The notes beneath the pieces were generated by a model. That model was given only the letters and a program-made list of their open reading frames with translations. It was not told where the DNA came from and ran no database searches. A DNA stretch of 58,265 nt, counting the filler, from Sphacelaria rigidula (Eukaryota): assembly GCA_964200075.2 (NCBI GenBank). It is 5 parts of 5 records of this genome, joined end to end, with 100 filler letters (N's around TTAATTAATTAA, not from the genome) between each part and the next. Parts side by side here need not be neighbours in the genome. Positions count along the whole stretch, not along the records: positions 11,676 to 23,248 come from CAXNAA020004761.1; 4 more parts are not named here. One strand, given 5' to 3'. How positions within the stretch are numbered: position 1 is the stretch's first letter; each line of letters opens with the position of its first letter. Below, piece by piece: positions 3,370-46,693 of the stretch. A program made the position numbers and the translations under genes.

Positions 3370-6300
3370 CATCCCATCTATTCTGCATGTTAGTCTACGC
3401 CTTTCGGTACATGTGGGCGCATCACCCGGGGACATACAGGAGGAAGGCCATCACAGATTTCTTTTCATTTTCAACTTTGATTTTGTACTCCACCCTCCTT
3501 CTGCAGTGCTTGCCTTATTTCTTTGTCGCGAGAACGGTGCAGCGGTCCCTCTATTCCCTCGTCAAAGGTGCAGTCGAACTTCTGTGTACCCACGACCTAG
3601 TCGCTCTCTCCTGTTGGGCATGTTGTGAAAACAAATCCTAGACAGAGTGACTGCACCGAGATTCGAATCCACTCCACAACCGTCAGAAGGTTTCGAGGGT
3701 ACCAACTAAGCCACCCGGGCGACCGGAGTAGCTCCAGTTTTCTCCATGGCGTGTATTGACGTGTGTTTCCTTCCTTGTGTTAACCTTGGGCACGTCTATC
3801 TTGTGACGACGGGTTGGATTCGAAGCGGATTGGTTGAATGTTCCAGTAAAAAGAATAATCGACTAGTACACAGCAATATCGTAGGGTAGCTCTGATTTGA
3901 CTGCACGTTACCTCGGAATTCTATGCATACCGTACAGTGGCGCTGTGGATGGTATCAGGGCAGTATTGTTTTAGCATTACAGTGGTTCATTCGAAGCTGT
4001 GGCGGCAGCAGCAGAAGCAATGGCAGCATCGTGCTAGCAGTGGTATATTAGCACACAAGACAGACACCCACATTTTTCGTCTCTACACCATCGTATATCT
4101 ACTCGTGGGGGTCGTGAGGTTTGTACACCAGAAGGCGGCGTCTACCGCTCACTAAAATATTAACCTCGCTCGATACCGATGCACCTAGGAGCGACCAACT
4201 GCTGCAGACCGAAATTCTCCGGCTCGATTGGCGAGGGATCAGTGGTATTGAAAACTTGGATTCCTTCACCCAAGTTCGAGAGCTATACCTGCAGCACAAC
4301 AGGATTCGCATCATCGAAGAACTGGATACACTGACACGGCTGGAGTTCCTTGCCCTCGGATCGAATCACATCCGTTGCCTGGAAAATCTGACCCACCTCA
4401 CCAAGGTAATGAGCAGAGTCCGGAAGAAATGTAGAGACAAGTGTTGGGAACATGCATTGCAAAGTCCACCACTACTATTCGATACCTCACATATTCGTCC
4501 AACTGACGGCTCTCAAAACCCCTTTAGTGGGTTCGGGTGTGTATCGGCTACATGAATACGTGCGTCCTTGATGCATCCACCATGTTTGTTTGCTGTTATC
4601 ATGTAAAAAACAAGGTCATACCATGTGTACAAACGATTACGTCTGGTCGTGCAGTTACAGGTCTTGGATGTATCATACAATGAGATTGAAGACGCCGACA
4701 CGCAGGAGCTTCCACCTGGCCTTGTAATCCTCAATCTCACCGGAAATCCATGCTGCCTGAAGCATGACTTCGATCACAAGATCGCCTCGACACTACCCAA
4801 CTTGATGGTGAGCTTCATGACTCCAGTACCGAGGAATGCCGACAATACTAGCTAGTTCGTAGAATGAGACCCTTATGTTCACACAACCGTGTTCCGTGCT
4901 TTGATTGCTCCTTGCGACCTATCAGTAATGGGCGCGTCTACGGCGAGGTACCAGTTTTGAACATTAACCTGCTCAAACGGTGCTGAGGTCCCTCCATGAC
5001 TGTAATCGGAGATGCCGATCTATCGTACACATAGGTATTTGTTGCACACCAGCATCACACAAACACAGTATGAACAACCCCACTCAATGGTTTCAGATAC
5101 GTGTGTGGATACTTACAGGGGCAAACTGCAACACCACCAAGGGTATGTCAAGTGCCGAGTTGTGCCGCGATAGCCAGCTCCAGAAAAATGGCTGGGTTGA
5201 GGAGACAAAATGTACATGTAACCCGAAATGACAAAAGCGAAGCACACCGAGCAGCTGGGAACGCCCATGCTCGGAACCGATTTTGGGATCGTTTTCGCCA
5301 ATGTCGCCTACATGAAGAGGCTTCATGAAGTCTGAAACCAGCTGTCACGTGCCGTATGACCATATTCTTCGTGAACAGTTTGGGGCTGGTTTGGAGGGGG
5401 ACTATCTCGACACCACTCTGCTCATATCCATTACACATTGTTAGCGATGATAAGACATCATTTTACCTGCTTATATCTGACCAAAGGGCCCCAACGTCGA
5501 ATCTCGACCCGTCCATCGTAGTCAAGACAGAAAGCGTTCTGAGCAGAAAACGAGAAGCAGGAATATTCGGACAGGGGAAAGCAAGCAGAGCACCCGAACC
5601 CACGAACAACCTCTCTTGTGGAGATCATTGGGCACCCAATACACGCAAGAGTGACGTGGAAAACGAATATAACAGTATCTTTTCACCGCCAACCGGCGAA
5701 AACAGTTGCCTCTGCAAACCGCTTCTCACCACTATGACACACAAATATGCTCGTGAAGGAGAGGGATGGTGGTGATGTGGATACTCTACCCTATAGGAGG
5801 GGTAAATTGCAACGAGGGTTCGTCGAAGATTCGTAACGCTGTCGCGTGTGCACCAAGATCGAGGAAAATGAAAGCAAACCCTACACTATCGCAGGCGAGG
5901 ACTTTTCTATGTCTAAGAAGTGTGAGCATTGATCGCCAAATGCGCGCTGAAACTACAGGTCTTGAATGGAAGATCTTTACGTGGTGGGAACAGTACTACA
6001 GACAACGGTGGAGTGACAGAGTGCAAAGGCGACCCACATTGCAGAGAAGAGGTTGTTGGGTGTCACTATGGGGACACAACTACATTGTATGTGACAGTAC
6101 AAACCGGCGACCGCAGCAACATGATTCCCCTACTCTTCAGGAAAGGGGACAACTTTGCACAGGCAAGACTATAGTATTCTCATCAACGGCGTATGGGGTA
6201 GCGGTGGGTGACGCGCCTGCTCTACCAGCGGGGATATTGAAACTTATCGTTGGAATGCCGCTGTTTCCCTGGAGAAGAGTGCACTGTATGTAGTTGTAAT

Positions 6301-11575: not shown

Positions 11576-11675
11576 NNNNNNNNNNNNNNNNNNNNNNNNN
11601 NNNNNNNNNNNNNNNNNNNTTAATTAATTAANNNNNNNNNNNNNNNNNNNNNNNNNNNNNNNNNNNNNNNNNNNN
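11576..11675. other. Artificial contig linker (N44-TTAATTAATTAA-N44)
   Basis: 100-nt N run with a central 12-mer that gives stops in all six frames; identical to the other three linkers. Confidence 0.98.
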
Positions 11676-12398: not shown

Positions 12399-13861
12399 TA
12401 TAGTCAGTACTTCTTTGTGTGAGTTTAGAGGGGCAAACAAAACCAGCCCGCCCTGGACGGAAAATACCACGCTGCCCTCACGGCTGGCACCTCACACCGC
12501 ACGACCTAGCCATCAACATATCTCCCACAAAAACACCACAGACATATCTAACCATCGCACCTGTCATTGTGTTTGTTCAGAGGTTGCCCTTGTGCTTAAC
12601 GGGGTCGTGTTTGGGCTGGGTGACCAAGATTCTCCCAAAACAACGCATAAAAACAGGCAACCTACGGGAGACAACACTCCGGGGATTCATTCAACACGTA
12701 AGATCCTTGCACGATCGTGACTGCTCGCATGCACGCAAGACAGTTGTGATAAAAGAACCAACCTCGACTCGACTAGCCCCATAGCACATAAGGACTCGCC
12801 ATGCACGGTAGAGGGGCAGGAGGGAGGCAATTCCCGGATTGGGCATGAGCGGTGAAGCTCAGGCACACCAACCCACGGTGGGCACCTCAACCGTTCGCCG
12901 GGCCAAAACGTCATGGCATCGACCTCTAAAAGCGACTTCATGCCTCCGTGTGCCTCATAATAACGTGAGTTTTCCATCAGTGCCCTAGTTGTCCATGTCA
13001 GAGTACCGAGATGGAGGCAACACCACAGAATATGGAGGTGTGGTGGATTGATGTGTGCCATTTGCCCGTTTTTGAAATTGATCTCGAGACAAAATGGTCC
13101 AAAGTCTTCGACTGTTCCACAGAAGAAAAATGTTTGTATCGACAGTATTTCACAAGGTTGCAACACAGGTGGTGGACGTATCAAAGGCTCTCATCCGCGC
13201 AATGCTACGAAAAAATCTCCTGCCTCTCGGCACGCATATGAGCAAGTGTCGGAAAACTTGCCGTAGGTGGCGTGGGATCTCCATCCGATTGCACTCGATG
13301 TGAGAGACGATATAGCAAAATTCTGTCCTTCTTTCGGGGCGGACGAGGGCTGTAATGTCGTAGGTAGTCACTGGCGATATTTTGGAGGACAAGTCGCAGA
13401 TGCGGACGGTGTTGTCCTGCTGACAACTCAGGATATCTTGATGTCCAAATTGAATTAGACCTTTACCCGACAACCACGCCCCGACAGCTGCCATGTATTT
13501 GAGGAGCGCCGATATCTGCAGGCGAAATCCACCCAGTAAAAAATAACCCATTTAAATGACGCCTGATACGCTTGCAATGCTGCCATGGTGAAATAAGAAA
13601 AAAAACGTACAAAACCATACGCAAGAGTACACACAACAGCAACGGGAAATCACCCAAAATGTGCTCATCGAAGGCTCACGTCCTGACATTCCCATCACGA
13701 AACAGTCCCACTTCTGATGGACATCCGCCGGTCGAGCAACGAACGAACGAACACCCGAGAAAACAAGCCATCTACTACCTGCACAAAGAAACAAAAAAAT
13801 ACTTTTTTTCGCAAAAACCATGTCCTACCACAAAATCCTCTTCTGCCGGTGCCCCCCTCAA

Positions 13862-15164
13862 TCACGCCTTGCTCTCCTTCTTTCTTCGCTTCTTCTTCTT
13901 AACCGCCTCGGTGCCTGCCTCGGACCCGTTCCCTGACCCCAATCCTTTGACTCTTTCGCGGGCCTTTCCCCCTCCCATTCGCTTCTCCAGCCCACATCCT
14001 TTAGCACCACATTCCTCCGCTAACGCACGTTCCGCTCCTTCCAAGACCCCCGACCCATCCCGATCCTTCCTCTTTTTTCGTGATCGGCTGGCCGCCGTTG
14101 CTGTGGTTGCTTTGTTCTCGTCAACACTCCCGCAGCCCTCTGCATGATCCATCGAGTGTGTTCGAGGTCGTTGGCGGCTTTGCACGCCTGGAGGCGAATC
14201 ATCTCCGTCTGCGGCGGTGGCTGTAGCGGCGGCCGGCGTGGTTTCGGCCCGTTCAGCGAGGTCCATCGATCGCGTCCGAGGACGGTGCGGAGACCCAGCC
14301 GTCCGTGCTATCTCACCATCATCATCGGTCTTGCCGTTGCTTCCACTAATCCGTTCCTCCCTCCTTCGCTTCTTGTCCTTCTTCTTGGCGCTTTTCGCCG
14401 CCGCCTTCTCTAGTTTTTCCCGAGCAGTGCTCGATTTACTACTACTATCGCCGCCGCTGATGACAGGGTAGGACGGTAGCGAGGGCCCCGCCGACTTGCC
14501 GAGAATTGCTCGCAGGTCCTCGGCGCTGAAGCTCTTCACATCCTTGGAGCGTACGCGCCGTGCGCGCGAGGGACAGGCGTAGGCACCTTGGGCATTGACA
14601 CTGGCGGTACCACTGCCGTTACTCTCGATATCACTACCACTGCCTGTACTACCATCAGAGCTACTGCGGTTACCGCTCTCACCCTTTTTTCTCCTTTTGT
14701 CCTTTTTGCTCTTCTTCTTTCTTTTTTTCGACTTCTTTTCGTTACTGTCATGAGCGGTACCATACGCTTTGGCCAGAGTCTCCAGCACGCCATTAAAGCT
14801 CACCGCGGTGCTCGCCCAACCCGCCGCTCCCGTTTGATCTCGCGTGGCGCCCAACCCCAAGTTGTTGGACTTCTTGGACACCTTGACGTGCTCCGACACA
14901 CCGTCCTCGTTCTTACCCAGGCCTTTGCCCTCTGTCCACCCCATCTTTTGGAGCATTTTCAATCCAAACTTGCTTTTGTCGTTTTTCCATGATTGGTTGA
15001 GGGTGTCGCTGGCCCCGGAAGCAGCCATGGCAAGGCTAATGCGAGGTGCAAGAGAATGGATCCGGGTGGAGGGCACGCCATGACGTGGATTATGACCTTT
15101 GTCATATTGGAAAATAACATAGAGAAATCGGGGGCATTCACCCTCGTGTCGATCTCTGCGACAT
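13862..15164 (-). CDS. PINX1: G-patch domain protein, PINX1/Pxr1(Gno1)-like rRNA-processing cofactor
   Basis: NQSWKNDKSKFGLKMLQKMGWTEGKGLGKNEDGVSEHVKVSKKSNNLGLGAT matches the PINX1-type N-terminal G-patch, then FNGVLETL, RVRSKDVKSFSAEDLRAILG and a Lys-rich tail. Proposed exon 1 15164-15142 (MSQRSTR, GG|GTGAAT), 106-nt phase-2 intron with a pyrimidine tract (CATTAG|), exon 2 15035-13862; alternative start ATG at 15028. Confidence 0.88.
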
Positions 15165-15181
15165 ATTGCTCTCTCTTGACC

Positions 15182-18100
15182 ATGGCAGCAGCATCCCCTT
15201 TCGAAGAACTAGATGTGAGTGGTGTCAACTACAGTGGGATCGCATGTTGCATGTCGCAGTAAAGTTCAATGGTACATATTGAACGAGGTTGTGGTGACAT
15301 GTTGTCTTGGCTTTCTCGTGACATGCGGTGTCAAGAACAAACTCCAAGCCATTCAAAACGTCGACACCCCAGATCCATCCTTGCTGCGATCTCGAGGAGG
15401 TGTGAACTTGCACGTTCACCGTGCTTGCGCCAATATATCTAGAGTAAGTCTATACACTACGCTAGTGTGCGGCTATATTGCTTCGGCTTGGCAGAGTAGG
15501 ATGGAAGAATGACCGTCGGCGCACATGCTCATATTTGATCGACGCCCATCCTCACAACGCCGAAGACCGTTACACGGTGTATGGGAGGCAGTGTTGCCAG
15601 CGAACGGGAAGGATATCGTGACGAATGCACACGACTATGGGCACGTAGATGCTTCACATTGGTGATCAGTGCCATTTTCAGCGCGTGCGGTGTGAGAGTA
15701 CAGCGGATATTGCAGCGAGACTTCTCACTTCCATACCATGTACTGTGCGGCAGTGCACTCGTACAGGACAGTCGTCCATGCGACGCAAAACAAATGGCGG
15801 TGGATAACACCCCCTGTCCCCTGTATCCAGCACCCCGTTCCATGCTCTGAAATCCACGCTGTGATACAAAAAAGCAATAGACCTCAAAATTCAGTCGTCG
15901 AAATAAGATGCCAAGTACTGAATATGGAGCAGAAAACGATTCGGTCATGCTTCATGTTTGTGGCCTCGGGTGTCACGGTTCCCCTTTCCTGTCGTGGTGC
16001 TGTGCACCTGTTTCGAGGATACCTTGGCGCTTGGTTGATGGTTTTCTCGAAGGAAGGAATCGACGCGTTGACGACACTTGTCTTTCATTCGTTTTCTAGA
16101 AGCTCCGCTCTTACTTTTCTGTACTGCTTTGTTGTAGCAAGGTACCGAACGAAGACTTTACAGGAAGTAGTCAAACACTGCGATAATGCTTAGCTCGCTG
16201 CGGTAAGTGGAGCTAGAGTAGGAGACGTGTACCCATGCACAGATTTCAGCTACTCGAGATGCGTCTCAGTTGCGACGCGCGGTAAGGTTTGCATCAATCC
16301 AAGCACTTCACGGGTGCAACGGCAACGCAACTCCTGTTGGAAAATCGCCTTTCCCGCCATCAAGTTGGGCTGGTGTACGCCGCTACTACAGGACTGCAGT
16401 AATGTACGATGTGCTCTGCTCATGTTGTCTCACGTTACACGTGAGGCAATCACACACAGCCATAGCGTATTTTTCTCCGAATCCTGAAAACTCAAGCCCA
16501 ACTGACTGTGCTCCGTTACAGCGGTATCCCCGCTTTGAGGCGGTTATCTGTAAGGCGGCCCCTAGCTTTACGGCGGTGGAAATCGGCTTCCACCATTAAT
16601 TCTCTGGTAGCTTGGGCCCAATTCACTTCGAGCTTCAGGCCGGCTTGAAGGCAGCCAATCATTGTTTGCATTGCAATATACCACACCCCGGACAATATAT
16701 GGTCAGTGAATGCAGTAGGCAAAAATGTACTGCGTTGAGAGTAGGCTTATTTCAACTATTGTCGGTCCGACGATAGTTGTAATAGGCCTACACTCAATCG
16801 AATCCATTTTTGTCTATTGCATCTATTGATCATATGTTATCTAGGGTGTGCAACATACCGAATAAAGTGCTCCCCCCACTAAACAAGATAAGAGGTAGGT
16901 GAAAGAGTAGTGCAGCGAGCCAGGGGTCCAATCACTGTCTCACGGGAGGGAGGGAGTGATGAGGTCACCGAGTAAAGCTTCTGGCACAAGCCTATTTGCT
17001 GAAACAATGATTGCTGCGTCATTGAAGCTGCAAACTAAAGTAAAACCTCCTCCGCCCTTCCGTTATCATGCATGGACAAAAACACCCTAATAACAACATC
17101 GCCCGGGTGCACAGTTGGAGGTATGTGTGAGCCTTCTCCCAAGCGACATCGGGGACATATACGCGGGCATCCGGCGGCACATTTACCGCTACCTCATGAA
17201 GTATAACGACGCGGTGGGCGGCGTACTTCTAGCTGTCTCAAGCCTATCCTTCGCGGACGGCGCGCGGGAAGGACGGATCACCGACGAGATGCCGCATATT
17301 CACTTTGATGTCAAGGCCAAGGCGCAAGTGTTCCGGCCACGAGCTGGCCACGTTTTGGAGGGGCGCGTGAACAAGGTGGGAGGGTGGATGATGGATTGCC
17401 CGGTGGAGGATAGCAATGCGCATGTCCTCCTGTGGTACGAGCAACGTGCCGTAGCGTGTGGTCAAGGCGTTTATTTTAAACGATACTCGATGGAGGCATC
17501 TTGCCAACTCCAATATCTATACGGAAGGGATCAAGACTTGCCTTGGGTCGCTGCTTGTGGCGAACAAAAGTACAAATACGGAAGACTGTCTTTCTGAAGC
17601 TCTTGTGTCGTTTTTCGCCCTAAAAAAGACCCAGGCGAATTTTGACACCTCGGAATGTCCTGCTGTACTCGTTAAGACGGTTCCAGCTCACCTGTATATT
17701 TTCCGGATAGCCACAGTATTTGTTGTGGCTGAACTTGTAGTTTTCTCGGATAGCGCTCATTTTTCTCGCAGACCGCATAGCTTTCTTACAGAGCGTAAAA
17801 ATGACGCAGACGCCCCGAAACAGTTTCCCATATTTGTTGCTGTTGTTTGCCATAAGAAGCGACCTTGACCAGTGCACGTGTCTTGCAAGCCGAAGACCTG
17901 CCGTAGTTGGCGTAGCGTTACTTGAATTTGTCCCACTTTTATCTAAGTTGACGTGAAGTTGCCTTGATTTGCCGAAGACTTGCCTTATTTGCGCAACATC
18001 GCCCTAATATGCCCACCACTTGCCTCAGGAGGCATGGGATTGCCTTATGCAAGCATTACTGAGTACCTACCGGCGCAATATGCGTATGGGTTCAAAGTGG

Positions 18101-19882
18101 GTGTCCCACCACAGTGCAGTCAAAACCACTGCCGTCCCAATTCATTGTACTAATTAATATTCAAGTAATTTGTACCATACCCAGTAATGTGTAGGGTCCC
18201 AACTTAGTGCAGCCATGCCAGGCTCGTAATCCACCTCACTGTGCTGGGACCCCCACCGTCTGAGCATGCAGCAGAAACAAGGTGGACCAATGTGGTTCAC
18301 ACTGAAGTGTCGGTCCAACATCAAGTTCCGCTTCTTAACCAGTGTCGGCCGAGGTATTTCATGAAAAGCGGATATTCAACAGTACCGTTGAGCGCTGAAT
18401 GCAGTGTGGACGATACTCAGCACAAGCACGCACTCCTAGAACCCACGAGCGGTGTTTTCATCATTGTTTACAAACGTGCAGACCGGACGCAAAACGGAGG
18501 CAGCCGACGTTGTTGTCCGACCTGGCACCAGAGTCAAAGATGAAGCTGTTGACGCGACACTGATCAGGACAAGTATATGTGGCACGATCTCAACATGTGC
18601 GAAATCAAAGCTCAAATGGGGCCATACTCCGCCAAACGGGACTCGAAGCGAAACACAAAACGAGGAAGGCACCCGCGGTGCTCGCGTACACTCTCTCAAA
18701 TAAAATGCACCGATAATTGACTTGCAGCCGAGCATTAACACACAGTTTTTTGTTCCCACTGTTGCCTATTGTGGAGTACGACGGTGAAATTTCTGCAGTC
18801 GTAGCCGCCCCAACGGTCGTCAGGAGTCTGGCAACGTAGTATGTGTTCTAAACTCGTGGTCGGACGTTCCGTACATCCGTGGGCTTCTGTTGGACGCGCC
18901 CAGGCCCGGTTCAGCGACTCAAATAAGCCCATCTGTGAAAATCGGACTCGATTACGACTGTAGAAGTGCCTTCAAAGGCTGGGATATGGGGGAATTCGCG
19001 CTGTGGGCATGGTCGGGTCCGTGCCTGGGGTGTTGCAGTTGCTATCAAGGGGTAGAGCTTACCATATCGTACCGTAGCTTGACACGTGTGCAATGCGTAA
19101 CCTGGTGAGTGGATTTGGGGTCGCGTACGCTTCCGTAGAGACGGTTCGTCCTGGGTGAATGCGGTTGTATGTATGCAGCACTGATATGCATCAAGCCACG
19201 TTGAGTGTAAGTTGCTGTTTTTTTTTTGTCGGTTGACCACGTCGACACACTCCGACCGCCATGTGCCGTTGCGCCTGCCTCATGAACGTTGCATATCCAC
19301 GGTGTATGTCGTGCGTCACCTGTATGGTTTCACAGGAACAGTGTCCCGTTAAGCATGATTCGTCAGCGCAATCTTACGCTTCAGTCGCCGAGTCGTTGTT
19401 GCTGGTGTCGTTTTCACAATTCGAATTGGTTCCGATCTCTGAGCAGCATCTTCTAGCTTCCGCACTGCGCACCTGACGCGGGCGCCTTCCGTGGTCACAG
19501 GTCAACTACCCAAAAAATAGTTAGAATGAGATCAAAGAAAAAATGTAACAAAATGACCCGAAAAAGTTTAATGCAGACGTGTGTATTAAAAGAAGAAAGA
19601 AGCTGTTCAAAATATATATATATAGTCAAAGCCGAGGGTACCTACCTTTTGAAAGTGTTAAAGCACCCTCGTCGCCGTTTATTCTGTTGGGTGTCTGCAC
19701 TCCTCCGTTCATTAGGTCACAAGCACTCACGTGGGTATGTTAGTGTGCGGGATATTCAATGCGTCGGTGGCGGCCGAGGCAATGGGAGAGGGGTTCACGT
19801 ATGATATGGCGGAGCTGGCCTGGAGAGGACCTCGAGGCGAGGTCATTGCCCTGGGGAATGCCATTCAGTTTGTCGTACAAAG
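15182..19882 (+). CDS. RPA43: RNA polymerase I subunit RPA43 (Rpb7-like SHS2 plus S1/OB domains); spliced, final exon not found
   Basis: Phase-consistent exons 15182-15214 (MAAASPFEELD|GTGAGT), 17115-17375 (LEVCVSLLPSD...YLMKYNDAVGGVLLA...GRITDEMPHIHFDV...VFRPRAGHVLEGRVNK), 19716-19882 (VTSTHVGMLVCGIFNASV...GEVIALGNAIQFVVQ). LMKY...GVLLA, FRP..G..LEG.VNK and H.G.LV.G.FNAS are RPA43 hallmarks. Confidence 0.9.
16681..16850. mobile_element. Fold-back palindromic MITE-like element, copy 2 (in RPA43 intron 1)
   Basis: TA|CCACACCCCGGACAATATATGGTCA...TGATCATATGTTATCTAGGGTGTG; diverged homolog of 12223-12398. Confidence 0.75.
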
Positions 19883-21223
19883 GTGAGGGCGACACCAACC
19901 CACACGCCAGTAGCCCTCCGACTACGAATCGTGTGGACATTTCTTTTTCGTCAATGTGTGCCGACACTAGCTTTGCGTCGCTTGGTTTTTCATGGATAAA
20001 ATGTTTGGAATAACTCATCAGATGATATTCCATCTGCGAGGTTGACCCAGTGCCTACACAAGCGACCGGGTAGAACAGGATCGAGAGTTGAGCTAGTGAG
20101 GTTTGTAGTGAACGTATTTTGATGTTGATACAGACATCGCCGGTGCGAGTGAGGAGCTAGTGTTACGAGAAAAATGAGGAGGAGCCCATAATTTTGGTTG
20201 AGGCCACGCACCCCCCCCCCCCCGGTGTGCTTACGTCAATGATCCATCATATATACATATATGTATATAAATGTACAAGTATCATTTCACATTTCCCACC
20301 ACTTTTGCCGAGTTTTCTCTGGCGGCCAGGCATTTTTTCCCGCGCTTTCTTTTGCAGCGCACTGAGAAGGCTCAGCGGTACATCAATTACCGTTCAGGTT
20401 TGGGTGTCATCTGATACCCGTGGCGCGTGTTTTCGCCACCGAAAGTCGCTCAAAGTGGCTCTTTTCAGCGGGCTCTCGATCCCGAACCACAGAAGCCTTT
20501 TTAAAGATAATGAGAAACTTGGAAAAAGAGTCCGAACTACCAAAAAAATCTGTTGAAGATAATGGAAATCTTCATTATTACTTCTGGCGGGGTATTTTCC
20601 CCCCGTGTTTCTGTTTGTCGCGTTCTCGTTCATTTGGGAGCACGCACACACCGGTTATGCCACCAATGTCACGAGAACATGAGAGCAAAGCAGTTGGAAA
20701 GACATGAACATTGCCTTGGCCTCAGTCAGCAATAAACACAAGACCGTGCAATGGGCCATTGGCGAGTCGGACAAGGCACAGCAGCACGGCAGCACAGGAA
20801 TGTTTTGCCGCAAAACAATCACCTTGTTGTTCAAAGAGTCCCGGTGATGTGGAAGCCGCAGTGATGTACAAACAAGATGCCAAGAATGTTCCACGCATTA
20901 CTATTTTTCTGGAGTGCTTCCCGCTGTCATGTCTTTATGGCACAAGAGCTACTTCGCACCCTGGCACCTCGGAAATACGACACATATCCTACGCCGGCGG
21001 TTCAGCCGTCGGCCTCCGTCCGAATTCCCACATTTCCGAACGGCATCCGATAACACATGCGATGTTTTGTACAGCCACGATCACAGCTGTACATTGAGAT
21101 AACACAGCGATACGCGTTGCGACATCTGCCCCCTTTTCCTCAACTTGTAAAAAGAATGGCTCCCGCTGTTGAGCAGGCCATGGTTCCGTGGTTATCATTT
21201 TTCTGTGGTCCAATATATGAATA

Positions 21224-23248: not shown

Positions 23249-23348
23249 NNNNNNNNNNNNNNNNNNNNNNNNNNNNNNNNNNNNNNNNNNNNTTAATTAA
23301 TTAANNNNNNNNNNNNNNNNNNNNNNNNNNNNNNNNNNNNNNNNNNNN
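23249..23348. other. Artificial contig linker
   Basis: Same N44-TTAATTAATTAA-N44 structure. Confidence 0.98.
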
Positions 23349-34921: not shown

Positions 34922-35021
34922 NNNNNNNNNNNNNNNNNNNNNNNNNNNNNNNNNNNNNNNNNNNNTTAATTAATTAANNNNNNNNNNNNNNNNNNNNNNN
35001 NNNNNNNNNNNNNNNNNNNNN
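34922..35021. other. Artificial contig linker
   Basis: Same N44-TTAATTAATTAA-N44 structure. Confidence 0.98.
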
Positions 35022-38038: not shown

Positions 38039-38377
38039 TTACTTGGGAAGGTCCCACGTTGTGGTTCCCGTTGCCTTGTTCCAGTAGTAGGTGTCACCAC
38101 TGGATTTGTCCGTTACGGCCTGCCAACCAGGAGGCAAAGCTGGCGAAGCTGGGGCGGGTGTGGGCGCCGGAGCGGCGGGCGCCGGGGTAGGGGCAGGCGA
38201 AGGGGTCGGGGCCGGGGCTGGCGTGGCCGCAGGAGTTGGTGCAGCGTACACGCCGTAGGGCACAAGCGACGGTTGTTGCCGTTGCTGTTGCGTGGGAGTT
38301 TGTTGCTTCGGGGGTTGTTGTCCATAGGATCTCGGCTGCTGCTGCGGCTGCTGGGATTGCTGTTGCTGCTGAGATTG

Positions 38378-38411
<34 letters not shown>

Positions 38412-41400
38412 GGCTGTTGATGTGGTTGCTGTTGCTGTTGCTGCTGCTGCTGCTGCGGTTGTTGACGTTGGGGCTGGTTTTGGGGGATCGGCCGGCCGTA
38501 AGGGTCGAGCTGCGGTTGTTGCTGCTGCTGCTGGCGGGACTGCTCCTGCTGTTGCAATTGAGGAGGTCGTTGCGTCTGCGGAATCGGACGCCCGTAAGGA
38601 TCCAGCTGCGGCGGCTTGTTTTGCTGTTGTTGATGCTGCTGAACGTGCTGCTGCTTCGGCAACCCGTTTTGAGGGGGGGTTGCGGAAGGCGGTGGTTGCT
38701 GCTGTTGAGGCGGCTGGCTTCCTGGAATAGGACGGCCATACTGATCCAACTGTGGCTGCTGAGGCGCACTCGCTGGTGCCGCCTGAGAAACCGCCGGAGC
38801 CACCGCTGAAGCCACCGCTGCAGGTACCGTCGGAGGTCTGAATTGGCCGCCTGGAGCAACAGCACTTGTAGGCGCAACGGGCGGCACACCAAAAGGAGGG
38901 GGTACGCCAAACGGACCCGGAGGCATGAGTTTCTGCCCTGGCTGCGGCTGCACCGGAGGTTGCTGAGAAGCTGGAGCAGACGAGAACGGTGGCTGCGCCT
39001 GTTGAGGCGGCGGGAACTGATTGGACTGCTGCTGTTGCTGCGGCTGCTGCGGCGGCTGCTGCGGCGGTTGCTGCGGCGGTTGCTGAGGGGGAAACTGAGG
39101 TAAACCAGGCGGGCCTCCTGGGGCGGGCCCCGGGGCGCGCCCGAAACCATGATGAATCTGTGCGGCCCACGATGTGTTCAGAGCAGACGAAGACGAAGAC
39201 GAAGACGAAGCGAGCGGAGGACGAGCGGAGTAAGGAATGCGGTTGGGGAAAGATTTGAAACGACGCATACAGATATTGACATCCTTTGATCCACGAGACG
39301 CCCCTACGGGCCAACGAAAACAAGCCAGGAGGGCAAGACACGTTGATACACGTCCATGCGCCTTGAACGGTCGCCGTACTTGGGAATCCCCCCGGTTCTC
39401 CTGGAAAGGACGCAAGACCGTCGGGTCGTCGAGTAGGGAATGAGGGTGAGAGTTTCGTGCAATATTACCTGCTGAGGCGCTTGCCCGGGTGGCTGCTGAG
39501 GCGGGAAGCCCGGTGCCTGCCCTTGCTGGGGAGGGAATTGCTGCGATGGTGGGGCACCTCCGCCAGCGGGCTGCGGGACACTTGGAGGTGGTACTCCGAA
39601 GTTTGGCTGAGCAGGAGGTTGTGCGAGGGGAGCACCGAAGGTCGTGGGGGGTGGGCGCTGGCCGAATGCATTTTGCGGAGGCTGCCCAGGTGGTACCTGT
39701 GTTCAGCACGCAGGAGAGAGAAAGAGCCGGGCAAGTGGGCATCACGTAAGGCGAGTATGCTGATGTCCGGTCGCCCCAGTGGCTCAGTTGGTCACCTCGA
39801 AACTTTTTGACGGCTGGGTCGTGAGTTTGGATCTCGGAGCGATCTGGGATGTTTTTCTCCCACAACGCCCGGCAGTGCAGAGCGACCATGTCGTGGGTAC
39901 ATAAAATTCGACTCAAGGGTCGACGAGGGAAAGGGATTGCTGAACCCCTCTCGCGATAAAAAAAAATTAAAGTCAAGCACCGCACAAGGAAGGTGGGGAA
40001 TAATTTGAAAAAATCCTGTGTTGGCCTTCCTCCTGTGTGGCCCCGGCTGGTGCGCCCACATATACCGAAAGGTGTAGACCGGCGTCCAGAATAGATGGGA
40101 GGACGACACTAACAACATGCTGAGTGGTGTGGAGCGTTATCGGACAATCATGAATCTTCAGGTCAGCCGTTGAACGCGTAGACAGGTACGCATGCAACAT
40201 CTCTGCTGCACGACATTAGTAACCGAAACATACAAAATCCAAAGTTATCCAACACTGATCAACGCCGGTGATCTTCGTCGTTGAAGCACACAAGCCATGG
40301 CCTAACCGTAACCCCAGCGCCATGTAGCCCACACTTTACAGGTCGCTTGTTTGCATGCTACCCTACGAAGCCACCACCAGTACTCATGGCGTTAGGGTGC
40401 ACCCAACGAGTGACGACAATCTTCAACTTTTCAAGCGTGTACACTCATTCATTGCACCAACCTGGTTGTTGTCTCTGCGCCCTCCGTCCTGCGTCGAGGA
40501 CTGCTGTTGCTGATGCTGCTGGTGCGGTTGCTGCTGGGGCGGGAGCCCTTGCTGGCCTGGTGGTCCTTGCCTCCCTCCAGGACCCGTTACAGCGAACGGA
40601 GGAGGTTGGGCGAGCGGAGGCCCGAAGCGAGAAGGCTGGGGGGCGGGCGCGCTTGTCGTCGGAGGTGCTTGGCTAGTCCTTCCATCAGAAGTAGCAGCAC
40701 CGTAGCTGTACTGCTGAGGCGGCTGCTGAGGCGGCTGCGAAGTTGGTGGGGCACTGGTGGGAGGTGTCGGTGGCGGTGCACCAAAGCCAGCAGGTGGCGC
40801 CTGCGGGGGAGGCTGCGGTGGAGCAGGGGTCGGCGCTGGAGGCTGGGTTCAGAAAGGGGACAGAAAGGACGGCAGGAAAAAGAGCAGACAGGAGATATAT
40901 TACTTGGGTGGGCCGGGTAGGTGCGTGTTGCTTGGGGAGATAGCTTGACACGCGGCATGGTTTCCGTGGTGTTGCTTTTCATGACCCCCACCAGTAGCAG
41001 AGACGGCACTAGGTCTATTGGATCCATACGCCCTAGCCGTGTGTGCCACACAAGTGAGACTTGGGCATTTGCGGTGGGAGGAGGCCGTGTTTGTTTCCTC
41101 TTGTGCTTATTTTGGGGTTACGGTGTGCGTGTAGAGCGATGCTCAACCTGTGTGGTGCATTGTGCATTTCAAGTTAACGTCTTACAGCAGTTGCTCCGCC
41201 AGTGTCGCTCTCACCACCACTTCGACGTTTGCGGCTTTTGGTTTGACGGTCACCGGGTTGTTCTCGTGCAGAAGCGAGTTTACATCATGATTGGCTCATT
41301 TATACACGAACACACACATACGGAAACTACTCGAAAGAGGGATACAGCTACATCATACAAACAGGTTCATACCTCCCTTTCGAGCTCTTTTGATCACACT

Positions 41401-46593: not shown

Positions 46594-46693
46594 NNNNNNN
46601 NNNNNNNNNNNNNNNNNNNNNNNNNNNNNNNNNNNNNTTAATTAATTAANNNNNNNNNNNNNNNNNNNNNNNNNNNNNNNNNNNNNNNNNNNN
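46594..46693. other. Artificial contig linker
   Basis: Same N44-TTAATTAATTAA-N44 structure. Confidence 0.98.

What the first reader, a model, noticed from the sequence alone, without database searches (positions are those of the whole stretch)
15028..15214. Two ribosome-biogenesis genes (PINX1-like and RPA43) head-to-head, with start codons possibly only 17 bp apart
Seen: the RPA43 ATG at 15182 (+) opens an 11-codon exon that splices in phase to the RPA43 domain. On the minus strand, an ATG at 15164 opens a 23-nt exon that splices in phase through a 106-nt intron to the G-patch exon, leaving 17 nt (ATTGCTCTCTCTTGACC) between the ATGs. Even with the fallback ATG at 15028 the gap is 153 bp, in a genome where introns run to kilobases. 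Known: RPA43 is a Pol I stalk subunit, and PINX1/Pxr1 is a G-patch activator of the Prp43/DHX15 helicase in rRNA processing. Inference: the transcripts either overlap at their 5' ends, with each promoter inside the other gene, or are almost leaderless, coupling rRNA synthesis and processing through one bidirectional promoter. This is the strongest candidate for an undescribed arrangement in this window.
Basis: partly seen in the sequence, partly recalled or inferred. Interest (0 to 1): 0.72.

Follow-up and report, generated by a model that had tools for sequence, protein, structure and literature searches.

The report
Back-to-back ribosome-making genes in brown algae
In a brown seaweed, two genes needed to build ribosomes sit back to back with start codons 153 bases apart (not 17), and they are neighbours in other brown algae too, but close back-to-back genes are a common layout in these genomes.

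Summary
The head-to-head pair is real; the 17-bp claim is not supported. RPA43 exon 1 (15182-15214) is confirmed: a transcript-like contig splices 15214^17115 and relatives begin with the same peptide. The proposed PINX1 intron is not: none of 4 runs shows 15142^15035, two run unspliced to 15093 (probably one data set), close relatives start at the 15028-equivalent ATG, and 6-16% of shuffles give such a model. The ATGs are therefore 153 bp apart, with contig ends 83 bp apart; true start sites are unmapped. Linkage is conserved: consecutive accessions in two Ectocarpus genomes, and 17 of 33 RPA43 records share a contig length with a PINX1 record, including Choristocarpus and Discosporangium; Cladosiphon ids are 10 apart. 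In Ectocarpus 61.7% of genes lie in divergent pairs (median 409 bp) that share a nucleosome-depleted region yet are not co-expressed (PMC7784034); adjacent ribosome-biogenesis pairs are known (PMC3500266). Verdict: an old shared-promoter pair, a new member of a known kind; co-regulation untested. The scan had not noted this pair on other DNA.

The parts
13862..15028 (-). PINX1/Pxr1-like G-patch gene, single coding exon, 388 aa, start ATG 15028 in GCCATGG context
   Evidence: G-patch PF01585 E 1.3e-15; best solved-structure match of the family profile is yeast Pxr1; one unspliced contig over 13600-15044 or further in 4 of 4 runs
15029..15093 (-). PINX1 5' leader, unspliced, at least 65 nt in X1/X8; holds an out-of-frame ATG at 15081
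   Evidence: contig 13600-15093 without gap or other letters in X1 and X8; to 15045/15044 in X2/X3; strand inferred, contigs are not stranded; upstream ATG
15094..15176 (.). 83 bp between the two contig ends; inferred shared promoter / nucleosome-depleted region, AT-rich at 15100-15119 (GC 25%)
   Evidence: contig ends (upper bound, not mapped start sites); GC; promoter role inferred from PMC7784034
15142..15164 (-). Proposed 23-nt PINX1 first exon: not supported
   Evidence: no joint in 4 runs, acceptor bridged unspliced in X1/X8; chance-level model; no like peptide in 40 relatives
15182..15214 (+). RPA43 exon 1 (11 codons), ATG in ACCATGG context
   Evidence: joint 15214^17115 in X3, contig starts 15177; relatives begin MAASPFEE/MATSPFEE/MVNSPFEE
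17115..17375 (+). RPA43 exon 2 (SHS2/Rpb7-N part)
19716..19883 (+). RPA43 exon 3 (OB domain part); exon 4 was not found in the window
   Evidence: joint in 4 of 4 runs; PF17875 E 1.2e-5; start of exon 4 has 0 matches in the window

Best explanation
PINX1/Pxr1-like and RPA43 are an old divergent gene pair of brown algae. Two RNA polymerase II start sites face away from each other inside a short AT-rich stretch (about 15094-15176), most likely one shared nucleosome-depleted region as described for close divergent pairs in Ectocarpus. PINX1 gets a short unspliced leader and starts translation at 15028; RPA43 gets a short leader, starts at 15182 and splices 15214^17115. The transcripts do not, or barely, overlap. 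The pair persists mainly because a break inside so short a shared promoter damages two housekeeping genes; shared function in ribosome biogenesis may add to this but is not shown. Shown: gene identities, RPA43 splicing, unspliced PINX1 leader to 15093, same-contig linkage in relatives. Inferred: start sites, chromatin state, orientation in relatives, reason for conservation.
For: (contig ends 15093 and 15177; RPA43 joints; no PINX1 joint). (GCCATGG at 15028, ACCATGG at 15182). (two close relatives start MAASCVG-DT, in register with MAASGAS-DT at 15028; 33 of 40 relatives start 7-19 residues before the DT[LQV]N motif). (a leader reaching 15164 unspliced would carry five upstream ATGs; no plus-strand ATG between 15093 and 15181). 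(CBJ48455/CBJ48456 and CAB1098844/CAB1098845 consecutive; offsets 67-76 in the other named genomes, same on 8-kb and on 3.7-Mb contigs). (architecture is general in brown algae).
Against: RNA evidence is assembled contigs of runs only guessed to be RNA, unstranded, unable to show starts; X1 and X8 have identical PINX1 contig length and depth, so the bridging rests on probably one data set; rare spliced forms are dropped from contigs. The proposed acceptor (CATTAG) equals the real acceptor of RPA43 intron 2, and a 10-residue extension would still fall within the relatives' range of N-terminal lengths. Cladosiphon okamuranus ids are g8504 and g8514, so the pair may be broken there. Spacing and orientation in relatives were not seen at DNA level.
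Confidence: 0.78

Rival explanations
1. The pair is a selected ribosome-biogenesis module: one bidirectional promoter co-regulates a Pol I subunit and a pre-rRNA processing cofactor, an exception to the independent regulation usual for Ectocarpus divergent pairs. (Compatible with the anatomy of the best explanation; it differs in the reason for conservation.)
For: Both genes act in ribosome biogenesis; linkage reaches the earliest-branching brown algal order, older than the ~236 My FDI clade; adjacent ribosome-biogenesis pairs are enriched and more tightly co-regulated in yeast (PMC3500266 passages); conserved divergent pairs are more often functionally related (PMC2871058 abstract).
Against: Pairs closer than 600 bp in Ectocarpus show r = 0.054 in transcript abundance. 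Rough expectation: with 282 such genes, about 17,000 genes (recalled) and 61.7% in divergent pairs, about one such pair is expected per genome by chance. No expression series was available here.
Confidence: 0.25
2. One reading: PINX1 starts at ATG 15164, splices out 106 nt, and the two start codons are 17 bp apart, so that the transcripts overlap or are leaderless.
For: The model is in phase with GT..AG ends; the acceptor equals a real one in RPA43; a minor isoform could be missing from contigs.
Against: 0 of 4 runs show the joint and X1/X8 bridge the acceptor unspliced; such models arise in 6-16% of shuffles; no relative among 40 has a like N-terminal peptide (15 of these are complete eukaryotic gene models, most others are ORF calls that could not show a spliced exon).
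Confidence: 0.04
3. RPA43 starts upstream at an in-frame ATG (15056, 15080 or 15092), so that its transcript overlaps the PINX1 leader in antisense.
For: The RPA43 exon-1 frame is open upstream and holds these three ATGs; contigs are unstranded; Choristocarpus has a longer N-terminus.
Against: The only contig with exon 1 starts at 15177; Ectocarpus, Scytosiphon, Pylaiella, Nemacystus and Cladosiphon models begin at the 15182-equivalent Met.
Confidence: 0.05

Closest known systems
Closely spaced divergent gene pairs of Ectocarpus and other brown algae (PMC7784034, section read; bioRxiv 10.1101/2024.02.19.579948, section read)
   Same: Head-to-head layout, short intergenic region in an intron-rich genome; distance well under the 600 bp below which start regions share one nucleosome-depleted region.
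   Different: At most 83 bp between contig ends (153 bp ATG to ATG) is shorter than the 409-bp median; the tail of that distribution was not seen. Both genes belong to one process.
Adjacent ribosome-biogenesis (RRB/RiBi) gene pairs of yeasts and other eukaryotes (PMC3500266, passages; PMC2871058, passages, e.g. RRP3/SSF1 and UTP17/RPABC5 in fungi)
   Same: Two unrelated ribosome-biogenesis genes as immediate neighbours, kept across a lineage.
   Different: Different partners; stramenopile lineage; co-regulation shown in yeast but untested here. 'rpa' and 'pxr1' have 0 occurrences in the main text of PMC3500266 and 'pinx1' 0 in PMC2871058; their supplements were not read.
Brown algal M1PDH3/M1Pase1 head-to-head pair (bioRxiv 10.1101/2024.02.19.579948, passage)
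   Same: Functionally related pair, head-to-head and adjacent across brown algae.
   Different: Mannitol cycle; intergenic 500 bp to 10 kb.

Membership tests
Bidirectional (divergent) gene pair | Adjacent genes on opposite strands with 5' ends within 1 kb | tested here: met
   ATGs 153 bp apart, contig ends 83 bp apart
Bidirectional (divergent) gene pair | One shared nucleosome-depleted region / promoter driving both directions | not testable with these tools
   Inferred from PMC7784034; only an AT-rich stretch seen
   0 of 4 runs with the joint; acceptor bridged unspliced in X1/X8. Minor isoforms cannot be excluded with contigs.
Adjacent co-regulated RiBi pair | Both genes act in ribosome biogenesis | tested here: met
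   By homology: human RPA43 E 7.9e-35 against Rpb7 E 4e-6; yeast Pxr1 best match
Adjacent co-regulated RiBi pair | Adjacency conserved across a lineage | tested here: met
Adjacent co-regulated RiBi pair | Correlated expression beyond background | not testable with these tools
   Contig depths cannot rank genes
PINX1/Pxr1 G-patch proteins | N-terminal G-patch closest to Pxr1/PINX1 | tested here: met
   best named non-algal hits are PINX1
PINX1/Pxr1 G-patch proteins | I-patch segment with FVKGE motif (PMC11584650 passages) | tested here: inconclusive
   FVKGE is not in the brown algal consensus; a different conserved block CPSRARRV..DLRAILG follows the G-patch; no alignment beyond residue 92 with a fungal PINX1
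PINX1/Pxr1 G-patch proteins | Activates Prp43/DHX15 | not tested
   Inferred from family
RPA43 (Pol I stalk) | SHS2/Rpb7-N plus RPA43 OB domain | tested here: met

The most novel reading that the evidence does not exclude
PINX1-RPA43 is a brown-algal ribosome-biogenesis module held head-to-head for more than about 236 million years by one very compact (under 100 bp) bidirectional promoter that truly co-regulates rRNA transcription and Prp43-dependent processing, against the brown algal rule that close divergent genes are regulated independently; start-site choice around the upstream ATG at 15081 could tune PINX1 translation.
Probability: 0.2. Interest if true: 0.45.

Novelty: new member of a known kind. 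Interest (0 to 1): 0.22.

Why it matters
As it stands: a specific, old gene pair that my searches did not find in print, and a compact candidate bidirectional promoter for brown algae, where promoter elements are poorly known. It is a good test case for whether any brown algal divergent pair is co-regulated. The striking version (17 bp, mutually embedded promoters) is not supported, and the layout itself is common in these genomes.

Tried and rejected
No run on record as RNA was listed; four runs were laid, three guessed RNA and one of unknown kind, and all four show spliced RPA43 joints. 15094-15176, including the proposed exon, has no cover in the four runs; absence of cover in contigs is not used as evidence. 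The 29-nt loose end of X3 at 15044 was tested as an alternative upstream exon: no match in the window, one exact match of its first 20 nt on another contig with the rest following and no GT-AG fit, so read as a chimera. Linkage outside brown algae: 40 metagenome loci with G-patch genes (37-71% identity, many short, not all PINX1) gave no RPA43 profile hit better than E 0.66, a weak negative; no brown algal DNA came back, so promoters could not be aligned. PINX1 of Tribonema was found but no RPA43 of a named non-brown stramenopile, so linkage there is open. No Pylaiella-named PINX1 was retrieved. The antisense trace of RPA43 exon 1 was sought in N-terminal read-through of relatives and not found (longest extension 55 codons), uninformative for most. 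The genome search found one RPA43 locus (2 exons) and one PINX1 plus a 48% G-patch match elsewhere; exon 4 was not located. Literature: 0 papers with 3 of PINX1, TWISTNB, RPA43, bidirectional promoter, head-to-head; listing showed no such pair; the library lacks most subscription papers, and supplements were not read (bioRxiv supplements with co-expression modules, 10.64898/2026.04.27.720984 Table S3, would bear on co-regulation and could not be seen).

Full report
Observation. The minus gene has a G-patch at residues 19-61, and a profile of its brown algal relatives matches yeast Pxr1 best among solved structures (E 1.2e-11, next 1e-8). The plus gene has SHS2 and RPA43-OB domains, and its profile matches human RPA43 at E 7.9e-35 against 4e-6 for Rpb7. 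The closest named relatives of both are brown algae. The locus lies on one 11.6-kb contig (window 11676-23248); the window looks like five such contigs joined by N spacers, so the rest of it is not known to be linked.

RPA43 first exon: confirmed. Ectocarpus, Scytosiphon and Pylaiella models begin with the same peptide. Of four runs laid (assembled contigs; three guessed RNA, one of unknown kind), X3 joins 15214 to 17115 with GT-AG ends and starts at 15177; X2 has the exon-1 end as a loose end; all four join exon 2 to exon 3.

PINX1 upstream exon: not supported. No run shows 15142^15035. X1 and X8 hold one contig that runs without gap through the proposed acceptor to 15093, 58 nt into the proposed intron; X2 and X3 stop at 15045 and 15044, too close to count as bridging. 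An in-phase ATG-exon/intron model arises in 316 of 2000 shuffles with a GTR donor, 112 of 2000 with GTRA, and 5 of 62 intron stretches. ATG 15028 sits in GCCATGG and two close relatives start in register with it; 33 of 40 relatives start 7-19 residues before the conserved DT[LQV]N motif, the other 7 have longer read-through with a Met 7-21 residues before it, and none resembles the proposed extension. Against my reading: the proposed acceptor equals the real acceptor of RPA43 intron 2, most relatives are ORF calls that could not show a spliced exon (15 are complete eukaryotic gene models), and a 10-residue extension would still be within the length range.

Anatomy. Contig ends leave 83 bp (15094-15176), with an AT-rich core at 15100-15119. 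An unspliced PINX1 leader reaching 15164 would carry five upstream ATGs, and an RPA43 leader reaching 15092 would gain in-frame ATGs that relatives lack. The simplest reading is two outward-facing start sites in this stretch (inference).

Conservation. Ectocarpus siliculosus has CBJ48455 (RPA43) and CBJ48456 (PINX1), and Ectocarpus sp. CCAP 1310/34 has CAB1098844/CAB1098845: consecutive accessions on contigs of equal length. Left out: distant hits, EukProt records without contig length, exon 3/4 fragments and the window's own protein. The 17 are 9 Ectocarpus records, Scytosiphon, Choristocarpus, Discosporangium and 5 unnamed contigs, so they are not independent. Of the 16 unmatched, 14 lie on contigs under 7.2 kb, one is an E. 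fasciculatus model that lacks exon 1 and one is Pylaiella, for which no PINX1 was retrieved. Discosporangium belongs to the order that branched first, before the ~236 My FDI clade (passages; placing Choristocarpus there is recalled). Against: Cladosiphon okamuranus has g8504 and g8514. Orientation and spacing in relatives were not seen, and linkage outside brown algae is open.

What is known. In Ectocarpus 61.7% of genes lie in divergent pairs, median intergenic length 409 bp; below about 600 bp the two start regions share a nucleosome-depleted region, yet transcript abundances are uncorrelated (r = 0.054) (PMC7784034, section 9 read). Short divergent intergenic regions are shared by all brown algae, and M1PDH3/M1Pase1 is a described conserved head-to-head pair (bioRxiv 10.1101/2024.02.19.579948, one section and passages). 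Adjacent ribosome-biogenesis pairs are widespread in eukaryotes (PMC3500266, passages), and conserved divergent pairs are more often functionally linked (PMC2871058, passages). Pxr1's role as a Prp43 activator in ribosome assembly: PMC11584650, passages. A rough count (282 genes, about 17,000 genes recalled) expects about one RiBi-RiBi divergent pair per genome by chance, so one pair does not show selection. This pair was not found in print, within the library's limits; supplements were not read.

Verdict. A real, old head-to-head pair with a very short shared promoter region, 153 bp ATG to ATG. New member of a known kind; the 17-bp overlap is unlikely (about 4%); true co-regulation is possible (about 20-25%) and testable.

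Noticed in passing
window 14959-15081 (-): An out-of-frame ATG at 15081 in strong context (GTCATGG) opens a 40-codon frame that overlaps the PINX1 start; the X1/X8 contig reaches 12 nt beyond it, so start-site choice could affect PINX1 translation.
   Followed up: partly
window 15080-15105: TGACGT at 15081-15086 (recalled as a bZIP/aureochrome-type site, from no call) and a small inverted repeat ATGAC..GTCAT at 15092-15105 lie at the edge of the AT-rich core; both are short enough to be chance.
   Followed up: no
window 14993-15262 (+): The RPA43 exon-1 frame is open upstream with in-frame ATGs at 15056, 15080 and 15092; relatives do not support the extension.
   Followed up: partly
window 11576-11675, 23249-23348, 34922-35021, 46594-46693: N spacers (the first holds TTAATTAATTAA) separate five pieces of nearly equal length (about 11.57 kb), apparently length-sorted contigs; neighbours across spacers are probably unlinked.
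   Followed up: partly
window 14400-14590 (-): A block CPSRARRV..DLRAILG is nearly invariant in brown algal PINX1 and present in Tribonema; it might play the part of the Pxr1 inhibitory segment but lacks the FVKGE motif.
   Followed up: partly
window 38039-40108 (-): 689-aa open frame with a WW domain at its end (E 3.4e-12).
   Followed up: no
window 4118-4555 (+): Open frame with leucine-rich repeats.
   Followed up: no
P0011/P0081 (Cladosiphon okamuranus g8514): RPA43 is fused in a 1235-1248 aa model with transporter and pyruvyl-transferase domains, probably a gene-model artefact; its id is 10 away from PINX1 (g8504).
   Followed up: no
P0049-P0052 (Ectocarpus PINX1 models): Several Ectocarpus models (240-249 aa) skip about 90 internal residues that other Ectocarpus models (334-337 aa) keep: an annotated internal intron that may be spurious or alternative.
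   Followed up: no
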